From Escherichia coli (GTDB lineage Bacteria; Pseudomonadota; Gammaproteobacteria; Enterobacterales; Enterobacteriaceae): a stretch of DNA of 334 nt. Shown here piece by piece: positions 1 through 334 of the stretch. The stretch lies in the NCBI RefSeq assembly GCF_003334335.1, contig NZ_QOWQ01000217.1; one strand, written 5' to 3'. Within the stretch, counting starts at the first letter, position 1, and every line of letters starts with the position of its first letter. Both the position numbers and the translations under genes were made by a program. The notes under the pieces are model-generated. The model saw only the letters and a program-made list of their open reading frames with translations. It ran no database searches and was not told where the DNA came from.

Positions 1-334
1 GTCCGGTGGCCATCACGCCCTATACCCTGATGCAGGCCATTGCGGCGGAAGGTGATGTCACCACACCGGTGGTGGTGAAGCCGTCGGATGGAGAAGGCAC
101 AGTTATCAGCACCACCAGCGAACCGGAGTATTACTTTGTTGTTGTTCTGGCGGGGCAGTCAAACTCAATGTCTTTTGGTGAAGGGCTGCCGCTGCCGGAT
201 ACATATGACCGTCCGGACCCGCGTATTAAACAGCTGGCGCGTCGCAGTACGGTGACGCCGGGTGGTGTCGCCTGTAAATATAACGACATCATTCCGGCGG
301 ACCATTGTCTGCATGATGTACAGGACATGAGCCG
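1..334 (+). CDS. nanS: Internal fragment (5' and 3' ends outside the window) of an SGNH-hydrolase / sialate O-acetylesterase (SASA)-family protein, most likely a NanS-like 9-O-acetyl-N-acetylneuraminate esterase, possibly the prophage-type (NanS-p) form with an N-terminal extension
   Basis: Seen in sequence: the frame starting at nt 3 is open to nt 334 with no stop codon (first full codon 3-5, last full codon 330-332). Translation: PVAITPYTLMQAIAAEGDVTTPVVVKPSDGEGTVISTTSEPEYYFVVVLAGQSNSMSFGEGLPLPDTYDRPDPRIKQLARRSTVTPGGVACKYNDIIPADHCLHDVQDMS. Both other + frames hit stops within the first ~55 nt (tga at 28-30 in frame 1; tga at 53-55 in frame 2). Established knowledge: hydrophobic beta-strand followed by GQSN(A/S)M is the block-I nucleophile motif of SASA/SGNH esterases. 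The GEGLPLPD...DPRIKQLARRSTVTPGG...C.YNDIIPADHCLHDVQDMS stretch matches my recollection of E. coli NanS/YjhS-family proteins; this is recalled, not searched. Codon usage (ctg, ccg, gcg, cgt, ggt favoured) looks enterobacterial. The strand and frame are well supported; the specific NanS assignment is less certain. Confidence 0.8.
51..128 (+). other. Low-complexity Thr/Val/Pro/Ser-rich segment (GDVTTPVVVKPSDGEGTVISTTSEPE), putative interdomain linker upstream of the esterase core
   Basis: Seen in sequence: codons 17-42 of the open frame are dominated by T, V, P, S, G, E and D with no long hydrophobic run, directly preceding the first beta-strand of the esterase domain. Inference: this composition is typical of flexible linkers between domains and suggests another domain is encoded upstream of the window. 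Confidence 0.4.
153..164 (+). other. GQSN active-site motif (SGNH block I); putative catalytic nucleophile Ser encoded by tca at 159-161
   Basis: Seen in sequence: ggg cag tca aac at 153-164 encodes G-Q-S-N, immediately after the hydrophobic run YYFVVVLA (codons at 129-152). Established knowledge: in SASA/SGNH esterases the Ser of this motif is the nucleophile. The downstream catalytic Asp/His block lies beyond the window and cannot be confirmed. Confidence 0.7.

What the first reader, a model, noticed from the sequence alone, without database searches (positions are those of the whole stretch)
129..185. Catalytic block I of an SGNH/SASA esterase (YYFVVVLAGQSNSMSFGEG) with Ser replacing the usual Ala after GQSN
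The motif is intact, so the enzyme is probably catalytically competent. The residues just after the nucleophile (S-M-S-F here) form part of the oxyanion-hole and substrate-binding neighbourhood in SGNH hydrolases, and variation there can accompany altered specificity for O-acetyl position or substrate. It may mark this as a distinct allele among the several NanS paralogues that enteric genomes often carry.
Basis: partly seen in the sequence, partly recalled or inferred. Interest (0 to 1): 0.35.

Follow-up and report, generated by a model that had tools for sequence, protein, structure and literature searches.

The report
Ordinary phage NanS-p sialate esterase motif

Summary
The window is 100% identical to Escherichia phage PhiR5_1. 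It encodes aa 35-144 of a 662-aa NanS-p protein with three domains: DUF1737, a SASA/NanS esterase and a lectin-like C-terminus. The gene sits between antiterminator Q and holin S. The motif YYFVVVLAGQSNSMSFGEG is at 129-185 as stated.

The catalytic domain matches E. coli NanS (3PT5) at E=1.6e-114, and the model superposes with TM 0.92-0.96. Gln86, Ser87, the QGE block and His373 are all present. The "missing" block V Asp is normal for NanS. Purifying selection (dN/dS 0.08-0.20) supports an active enzyme.

The Ser after GQSN is not distinctive. Among E. coli NanS-p clusters the position reads G95/S13/A4/N2/C1. Among distant relatives it reads A50/G18/S17/M12. In SGNH enzymes generally this residue is described as contributing only a backbone NH. 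The oxyanion-hole side chain is the Gln before the nucleophile.

Codon 159-161 is the nucleophile itself. The variant Ser is at 165-167.

The allele does belong to a rare, untested lineage found in 36 of 5,426 complete E. coli genomes. That lineage is defined mainly downstream of the window, from about aa 181, including a block II Gly-to-Asp change. Verdict: already known, low interest.

The parts
3..334 (+). Partial CDS: aa 35-144 (plus 2 bases of codon 145) of a 662-aa phage NanS-p sialate O-acetylesterase
   Evidence: Open frame of 110 codons. 100% identical to PhiR5_1 PV340545.1 18946-19279, inside CDS XSB41304.1.
3..50 (+). C-terminal part of the N-terminal DUF1737 domain (aa 35-50)
   Evidence: Pfam DUF1737 covers aa 3-50, E=2.3e-15. 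The homologous domain of phi24B gp84 is reported as a capsid-decorating domain (bioRxiv 10.64898/2026.04.10.717836).
51..128 (+). Interdomain linker (aa 51-76), including DVTTP at 54-68
   Evidence: Lies between the Pfam DUF1737 hit and the start of the NanS homology at aa 74. It is variable between alleles.
129..185 (+). Strand beta-1 plus SGNH/SASA block I (aa 77-95, YYFVVVLAGQSNSMSFGEG)
   Evidence: Translation. Aligns to NanS block I 17-GQSNA-21 (PMC10792757). In the AF2 model, beta-1 is aa 77-85 and S87-N88-S89 form one helical turn.
156..158 (+). Gln86, the oxyanion-hole side chain of SASA enzymes
   Evidence: Q in 115 of 115 close and 100 of 105 distant homologues. Role taken from PMC9487903.
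159..161 (+). Ser87 (TCA), the catalytic nucleophile, equivalent to NanS Ser19
   Evidence: Alignment to 3PT5. S in 115 of 115 close and 102 of 105 distant homologues.
165..167 (+). Ser89 (TCA), the flagged variant at nucleophile +2 (NanS Ala21)
   Evidence: Polymorphic position: G95/S13/A4/N2/C1 in close clusters and A50/G18/S17/M12/N3/C3/T1 in distant ones.
171..176 (+). Ser91-Phe92, also variable. The full string GQSNSMSFGEG is specific to this lineage.
   Evidence: Position 91 reads A64/S55 and position 92 reads Y109/F8/T2 in close clusters. GQSNSMSFGEG occurs only in 4 clusters with 812 members and is conserved in the sister sub-lineage.
186..334 (+). Continuation of the catalytic domain (aa 96-145), nearly identical across NanS-p alleles
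   Evidence: 87-98% nucleotide identity to other alleles across aa 76-150. Alignment shown.

Best explanation
The window is an internal piece of the nanS-p gene of a lambda-like temperate phage, PhiR5_1. Near-identical copies sit in E. coli prophages.

The protein has three parts:
- an N-terminal DUF1737 domain
- a NanS-type SASA/SGNH esterase domain (aa ~77-395)
- a lectin-like jelly-roll C-terminal domain

The flagged motif is strand beta-1 plus block I. Ser87 (window 159-161) is the nucleophile. Inferred from NanS: Ser87 works with His373 as a Ser-His pair with no catalytic Asp. The oxyanion hole is built from the Ser87 backbone NH, a block II backbone NH (G189/D190) and the Gln86 side chain, which is positioned by Q247-G248-E249. 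By homology the enzyme removes O-acetyl groups from 9-O-acetylated sialic acids such as Neu5,9Ac2. From its position between Q and the lysis genes, it would be expressed with the late genes.

Ser89, the residue after GQSN, is one state of a naturally variable position (A, G, S, M, N or C). In SGNH enzymes generally, that position is described as contributing only its backbone to the nucleophile turn. It is an ordinary polymorphism, not a functional signature.

Shown here: sequence identity, domain architecture, conservation of the catalytic residues, fold, purifying selection, gene position and variant frequencies.

Inferred: catalytic activity, substrate and late expression.
For: - Identity and context: 100% match to PhiR5_1. 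The CDS lies between Q and holin S, and the same slot is used in E. coli prophages and Stx phages.
- Domains: DUF1737, SASA and DUF6645. PDB matches to NanS 3PT5 (E=1.6e-114) and the NanS-p C-terminal domain 6YP6 (E=3.8e-48).
- Fold: AF2 model pLDDT 94.9. The top fold match is 3PT5 with TM 0.92/0.96 and rmsd 1.5 A.
- Catalytic blocks present: GQSN, RGDSGF, WMQGEKD, RKTHFS. G85, Q86, S87, N88, G189, Q247, G248, E249, D251, R370 and H373 sit at positions that are invariant or nearly so in the E. coli set and strongly conserved (about 70-99%) among distant relatives.
- Selection: dN/dS in the catalytic domain is 0.13-0.18 against other lineages. Against the sister sub-lineage it is 0.08-0.20, with all four block variants conserved.
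- Ser at +2 is common.
- Literature: all tested NanS-p alleles were active (7 in EDL933, 5 in O104:H4; review PMC8065619). The SASA oxyanion hole uses the Gln before the Ser, and NanS lacks the Asp (PMC9487903, PMC10792757).
Against: - No enzyme from this lineage has been assayed. EDL933, Sakai and O104:H4 2011C-3493 are in the searched collection but are not among the 36 genomes carrying the lineage-specific part.
- Block II carries Asp190 where NanS has Gly122, the residue listed as the oxyanion Gly in PMC10792757. Only 5 of 120 close clusters share this.
- I could not measure how close the Ser89 side chain is to the acetyl pocket, because no coordinates were available.
- The 2026 preprint on phi24B suggests the protein may act mainly as a virion component rather than a lysogen enzyme.
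Confidence: 0.88

Rival explanations
1. One reading: the S-M-S-F residues after the nucleophile retune substrate or O-acetyl-position specificity, so this allele is functionally distinct.
For: The exact string GQSNSMSFGEG is confined to this lineage (4 clusters, 812 members) and is conserved in the sister sub-lineage despite dS of 0.7 in that segment. The lineage also has correlated changes in blocks II, III and V. M90-F92 lie in a loop next to the nucleophile turn.
Against: Each residue is individually common. S89 occurs with three different block II variants. S91 is in 55 of 119 clusters, including the characterised 933W allele, and F92 is in 8 clusters. The +2 residue's described role in thioesterase I is backbone only, and Ser is the native +2 residue there (GDSLS; PMC10792757). 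Ser is the second or third most common state in distant relatives. No specificity data link this position to regiospecificity.
Confidence: 0.08
2. Pseudo-enzyme: the lineage has lost catalysis, for example through Asp at the block II Gly position, and is kept only for capsid-binding or lectin functions.
For: G190D sits at the position equivalent to NanS Gly122, the OxyII residue in PMC10792757. Replacing the block II Gly reshapes the loop in SpOatA (PMC9487903). No activity data exist for this lineage.
Against: The nucleophile, Gln, QGE block, His and G189 are all intact. Position 190 is naturally tolerant: A16/D5/S1 in close clusters and S8/E6/A4/D3/L2/N2 in distant ones, whereas G189 is invariant in the E. 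coli clusters and G in 95 of 104 distant representatives. The oxyanion contact is a backbone NH. The catalytic domain, including the blocks, is under purifying selection with dN/dS of 0.08-0.20. The model keeps the NanS fold at rmsd 1.5 A.
Confidence: 0.05
3. The protein's main role is for the virion. It would attach to capsid hexons through DUF1737, be self-processed, and carry the esterase and lectin domains for mucus or cell-surface interactions of the phage. Feeding the lysogen would be secondary. This concerns the biological role and is compatible with the enzymology above.
For: In phi24B, gp84 (NanS-p) was abundant in virions, its N-terminal domain was seen as a hexamer on capsid hexons, and it is processed after Gly54 (bioRxiv 10.64898/2026.04.10.717836). 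The gene sits in the late operon beside the lysis and head genes. SGNH-like esterase folds also appear in phage tailspike and tail-complex structures among the fold hits (9vyh, 9lc0).
Against: PhiR5_1 is a lambda-type siphovirus with gpE and gpD, not a T=9 podovirus. Its DUF1737 anchor loop is 3 aa shorter, and the proposed SISSP processing motif reads DVTTP. Growth on Neu5,9Ac2 by lysogens has been shown for other alleles (PMC8065619).
Confidence: 0.25

Closest known systems
[quoted passage not shown]
   Same: Same catalytic fold: E=1.6e-114 over aa 74-394, model TM 0.92/0.96, rmsd 1.5 A, 54% identity. Same block scheme: GQSN, RGx, MQGE, R..HFS. Same absence of the block V Asp.
   Different: NanS is a single-domain chromosomal enzyme of 326 aa. 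This protein adds DUF1737 and a lectin-like C-terminal domain and is phage-borne. Block residues differ: A21S, A23S, Y24F, C119G, G122D, A124G, F182K, S299K, S300T.
NanS-p of phage 933W (z1466/L0105) and phi24B (vb_24B_21/gp84; C-terminal domain PDB 6YP6)
   Same: Same three-domain architecture and the same gene slot between Q (or stx) and S. The C-terminal domain is homologous to 6YP6 at E=3.8e-48. The 933W enzyme is experimentally active (PMC8065619).
   Different: Identity is only 70% in the catalytic domain, 48% in the C-terminal domain and 63% in the N-terminal domain. 933W block I reads GQSNGMSYGEG and its block II reads CCRGGSAF. PhiR5_1 has no stx genes or tRNAs upstream and is a siphovirus.
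SASA / CAZy CE6 family (Pfam PF03629; At4g34215 2APJ, CAC0529 1ZMB, mammalian SIAE 8F9O)
   Same: GQSN block I, the QGE block III and the inverted oxyanion hole that uses the Gln. Pfam SASA hit at E=4.2e-9. Fold matches at E from 1e-8 to 1e-4.
   Different: These are distant (12-17% identity, TM about 0.5). According to PMC9487903 the other solved SASA structures keep the block V Asp that EcNanS lacks.

Membership tests
SASA / NanS-type SGNH esterase | Block I GQSN with the nucleophile Ser directly after the oxyanion Gln | tested here: met
   G85-Q86-S87-N88 at window 153-164. These positions are invariant in 115 of 115 close homologues.
SASA / NanS-type SGNH esterase | Block III (H/M)QGE motif that positions the Gln | tested here: met
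   W245-M-Q247-G-E249-K-D251. Q, G and E are conserved in at least 96 of about 104 distant representatives.
SASA / NanS-type SGNH esterase | Block II Gly that donates a backbone NH to the oxyanion hole | tested here: inconclusive
   The sequence is R188-G189-D190-S191. G189 is invariant in the E. coli clusters and G in 95 of 104 distant representatives, but the residue aligned to NanS Gly122 (OxyII in PMC10792757) is Asp. That position is variable in the family: 22 of 120 close and 28 of 104 distant homologues are non-Gly. The geometry could not be checked.
SASA / NanS-type SGNH esterase | Block V catalytic His (NanS His301), with no Asp in the NanS subgroup | tested here: met
   R370-K-T-H373-F-S. 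H is present in 118 of 118 close homologues. Arg occupies the position of the usual Asp, as in NanS (PMC10792757, PMC9487903).
SASA / NanS-type SGNH esterase | SGNH alpha/beta fold | tested here: met
   AF2 pLDDT 94.9 and pTM 0.94. Foldseek top hit is 3PT5 at E=7e-46, TM 0.92/0.96.
SASA / NanS-type SGNH esterase | Sialate O-acetylesterase activity on Neu5,9Ac2 | not testable with these tools
   Needs an enzyme assay. No tested allele belongs to this lineage.
NanS-p (prophage-borne NanS) | Three-domain architecture: DUF1737, SASA, C-terminal lectin-like domain (DUF6645) | tested here: met
   Pfam hits at aa 3-50, 81-276 and 511-619. 6YP6 matches aa 448-656. PHROG 143 covers the full length.
NanS-p (prophage-borne NanS) | Located in the lambdoid late region downstream of Q (and stx where present) and upstream of holin S | tested here: met
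   Gene order in PhiR5_1 is Q, two small ORFs, nanS-p, DUF1378, DUF826, S. The order is the same.
NanS-p (prophage-borne NanS) | Q-dependent late, induction-responsive expression | not tested
   Inferred from gene position and from qPCR on other alleles (PMC10462455). Terminator-like hairpins are enriched in L001 4400-8700, several of them between Q and nanS-p (12 against 4.8 expected).

The most novel reading that the evidence does not exclude
This allele belongs to a rare NanS-p lineage that has never been assayed. It is found in 36 of 5,426 complete E. coli genomes, in no Stx phage, and not in EDL933, Sakai or O104:H4. The lineage carries a conserved, co-inherited set of changes next to all four catalytic blocks: S89/S91/F92, C187G/G190D/A192G, F250K and A371K/S372T. 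It also has a C-terminal lectin-like domain only 48% identical to the characterised one. Together these could give a different substrate range, such as another O-acetyl position or a non-sialic O-acetylated glycan like LPS or capsule. If so, the Ser is only one minor marker of that difference.
Probability: 0.1. Interest if true: 0.35.

Novelty: already known. Interest (0 to 1): 0.1.

Why it matters
It matters little as it stands. NanS-p esterases are a described family that lets pathogenic E. coli use O-acetylated mucin sialic acids, and they may also decorate phage capsids. This window adds one more allele.

Three corrections are useful:
- The position after GQSN is naturally variable and should not be read as a specificity marker.
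- The absence of a block V Asp is normal for NanS.
- The nucleophile codon is 159-161.

If the rare lineage did prove to have a different substrate range, it would be a modest addition to how prophage paralogues diversify mucin foraging.

Tried and rejected
- Primary papers were not held, so catalytic-residue roles come from two reviews or analyses (PMC9487903, PMC10792757) and a Stx-phage review (PMC8065619). The papers sought were Rangarajan 2011 (PMC3149194), Saile 2016 (PMC5038053), Feuerbaum 2018 (PMC7106450) and Rangel 2016 (PMC5038012).
- NCBIfam gave no hit.
- Rfam found nothing in the window on either strand.
- No paper on PhiR5_1 was found.
- I considered that a recombination breakpoint sits at block I, because STEC435 has an identical N-terminus but a different motif. 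I rejected this: nucleotide identity stays at 87-98% through aa ~180 and collapses only from about aa 181.
- I considered Asp190 as evidence for a dead enzyme. I rejected this as unsupported, because the position is variable across the family and the lineage is under purifying selection.
- The distance from the Ser89 side chain to the active site could not be measured, because the model tool returns no coordinates.
- The short minus-strand ORFs in the window were treated as by-products of the coding strand and were not pursued.

Full report
**1. Observation**

Window 129-185 on the + strand translates to YYFVVVLAGQSNSMSFGEG, exactly as stated. The same frame is open for all 110 codons of the window. 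The other frames hold only short ORFs.

- G85 is at 153-155, Q86 at 156-158 and N88 at 162-164.
- Nucleophile Ser87 is at 159-161.
- The "Ser instead of Ala" (Ser89) is at 165-167.
- S91 is at 171-173 and F92 at 174-176.

A Ser-to-Ala change at 159-161 would therefore remove the nucleophile. It would not revert the variant.

**2. What it is**

The window is 100% identical to Escherichia phage PhiR5_1 (PV340545.1, 18946-19279). It lies in a 662-aa CDS annotated "hypothetical protein".

*Gene context.* The gene sits after antiterminator Q and two small ORFs, and before DUF1378, DUF826, holin S and the lysis genes. This is the classic nanS-p slot. The same order is seen:
- downstream of stx2 in 933W and Stx2_EH2201
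- downstream of stx1 in EDL933 CP-933V
- in several non-Stx prophages

PhiR5_1 has no stx genes and no tRNAs in this region.

*Domains.*
- Pfam finds DUF1737 (aa 3-50), SASA (aa 81-276) and DUF6645 (aa 511-619).
- Solved structures give NanS 3PT5 at E=1.6e-114 over aa 74-394, and the NanS-p C-terminal lectin-like domain 6YP6 at E=3.8e-48.
- PHROG 143 covers the full length.
- An AlphaFold model of aa 70-400 has pLDDT 94.9. It superposes on 3PT5 with TM 0.92/0.96 and rmsd 1.5 A.

The window thus covers the end of DUF1737, the first linker, block I and the next 50 residues of the esterase domain.

**3. Catalytic competence**

| Block | This protein | NanS |
|---|---|---|
| I | GQSNSMSFGEG | GQSNAMAYGEG |
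| II | VPCGRGDSGFT | VPCCRGGSAFT |
| III | WMQGEKD | WMQGEFD |
| V | RKTHFS | RSSHFS |

Residues G85, Q86, S87, N88, G189, Q247, G248, E249, D251, R370 and H373 occupy positions that are invariant or nearly so among 120 E. coli clusters. Among about 104 distant representatives they are strongly conserved, at about 70-99%.

- In SASA enzymes the oxyanion-hole side chain is the Gln that precedes the Ser, positioned by the QGE block. EcNanS lacks the block V Asp (PMC9487903).
- In 3PT5 a main-chain carbonyl takes the place of the acid (PMC10792757).

"Asp missing" is therefore not a valid refutation test. The relevant residue is the His, and it is present.

*Selection.* The catalytic domain has dN/dS of 0.13-0.18 against other NanS-p lineages. 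Against a sister sub-lineage (PhiR12_1 and strain 2015C-3121) it is 0.08 for aa 77-180 and 0.20 for aa 181-395. That sister is at dS 0.33-0.71 and keeps all four block variants unchanged. This supports a working enzyme, but activity itself is inferred.

**4. The flagged Ser**

Position 89 is polymorphic.

| Set | Residues at position 89 | Source |
|---|---|---|
| E. coli NanS-p clusters (90% identity) | G95, S13, A4, N2, C1 | |
| Same set, weighted by member sequences | A about 14,200; S about 8,300; G about 6,600 | |
| Representatives of 50%-identity clusters | A50, G18, S17, M12, N3, C3, T1 | |

Ser89 occurs with three different block II variants:
- Stx2_EH2201 and E2863 have GQSNSMAYGEG with CCRGGSAF.
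- FHI_NMBU_10 has GQSNSMAYGEG with CCRGASAF.
- This lineage has GQSNSMSFGEG with CGRGDSGF.

The characterised 933W allele and the CP-933V allele both have Gly at this position.

In the SGNH framework the +2 residue supplies its backbone NH to the turn that presents the nucleophile. Thioesterase I has Ser there natively (GDSLS) (PMC10792757). In the model, S87-N88-S89 form the single helical turn after beta-1, and M90-F92 are loop.

"Ala is usual" is therefore true for NanS and for the wider family's plurality. Ser is a routine alternative, and nothing ties it to specificity.

**5. What actually distinguishes this allele**

NanS-p genes are mosaics. Against STEC435, FHI_NMBU_10, E2863 and Stx2_EH2201, nucleotide identity is 82-100% for most of aa 1-180 and falls to about 50-70% from about aa 181 onward. 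STEC435 even has an identical N-terminus and linker combined with a catalytic domain only 71% identical.

This explains the difference in hit counts:
- The window matches 1,020 of 5,426 complete E. coli genomes, with a median of 3 copies.
- The lineage-specific 3' part (L001:6441-7886) matches only 36 genomes: 31 at 95% or above and 5 at about 87-90%.
- Among phages it matches only PhiR5_1 and the PhiR12 phages, and no Stx phage.

EDL933, Sakai and O104:H4 2011C-3493 are in the collection but are not among the 36. The experimentally tested alleles (7 in EDL933, 5 in O104:H4, all active; PMC8065619) therefore do not include this lineage.

The lineage's most unusual active-site feature is Asp190, at the position of NanS Gly122. 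It lies outside the window. That position is tolerant of change (A16/D5/S1 in close clusters; S8/E6/A4/D3 in distant ones), whereas G189 is invariant in the E. coli clusters and G in 95 of 104 distant representatives. I do not read it as inactivating.

**6. Biological role**

By homology the enzyme de-O-acetylates Neu5,9Ac2 and related mucin sialic acids. NanS acts on O-7, O-8 and O-9 but not O-4 (PMC8319020).

A 2026 preprint shows that the phi24B homologue is an abundant, self-processed capsid-decoration protein anchored through DUF1737. Whether that holds here is open, for three reasons:
- PhiR5_1 is a lambda-type siphovirus with gpE and gpD.
- Its anchor loop is 3 aa shorter than in 933W.
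- The proposed SISSP processing motif reads DVTTP, at window 54-68.

**7. Verdict**

- The family assignment and likely competence are supported.
- The significance attached to the Ser is not supported.
- This is a known kind of gene. Near-identical prophage copies are annotated in RefSeq as "SASA family carbohydrate esterase".

Interest is low. The only residual novelty is that the allele belongs to a rare, unassayed NanS-p lineage.

Noticed in passing
window 54-68 (aa 52-56, DVTTP): This stretch aligns with the 'SISSP' sequence just after Gly54 in 933W/phi24B NanS-p, which a 2026 preprint proposes as an autoprocessing site between the capsid-binding domain and the esterase. Here the Ser-Ser is Thr-Thr, so processing may differ.
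   Followed up: partly
window ~12-32 (aa 38-44): The DUF1737 'anchor loop' carries the Tyr that plugs into the capsid in phi24B. It is 3 residues shorter here than in 933W (ITP---YTL against STAGYGAEF).
   Followed up: no
L001:6441 onward (aa ~181 of the gene, 107 nt past the window's 3' end): There is a sharp mosaic boundary. Identity to other NanS-p alleles drops from about 82-100% to about 50-70% right at block II. The N-terminal domain, the linker and the first 100 residues of the esterase domain are exchanged among lineages.
   Followed up: yes
L001:6468-6470 (Asp190): Block II reads CGRGDSGF. Asp sits where NanS has Gly122, the residue listed as the oxyanion-hole Gly. This is shared by only 5 of 120 E. 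coli clusters but is conserved across both sub-lineages.
   Followed up: partly
L001:7086-7241 (aa 396-447, second linker): The Gly/Pro/Ser-rich linker between the esterase and the lectin-like domain evolves much faster than the domains (dN/dS 0.45, with indels) and is essentially unalignable between lineages.
   Followed up: partly
L001:4400-8700 (several sites in the Q to nanS-p interval, 4905-5900): PhiR5_1 has no stx genes and no tRNAs where Stx phages carry them, only two small ORFs. Terminator-like hairpins are enriched in the scanned region L001 4400-8700, several of them between Q and nanS-p (12 found against 4.8 expected), including one just after Q at 4973-4993.
   Followed up: partly
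L016 (PV340545.1 25000-50981): PhiR5_1 has a full lambda-type head and tail module (Nu1, A, W, B, Nu3, D, E, V, H, J). A DUF1737-NanS-p protein therefore coexists with the gpD decoration protein on a capsid type different from the T=9 podovirus where DUF1737 binding was shown. EDL933 CP-933V is likewise a siphovirus-type prophage.
   Followed up: no
model of aa 70-400 (fold search): Besides NanS and the SASA structures, fold hits include the cyanopodophage Pan3 tailspike (9vyh; E about 5e-7, TM about 0.5) and, only at chance level, the phage N4 tail complex (9lc0; E about 0.05-0.09, TM about 0.4). SGNH/SASA-like esterase modules therefore recur in phage virion proteins.
   Followed up: no
window 131-328, minus strand: A 65-aa ATG-started ORF and other short antisense ORFs overlap the coding frame. 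Nothing suggests they are genes.
   Followed up: no
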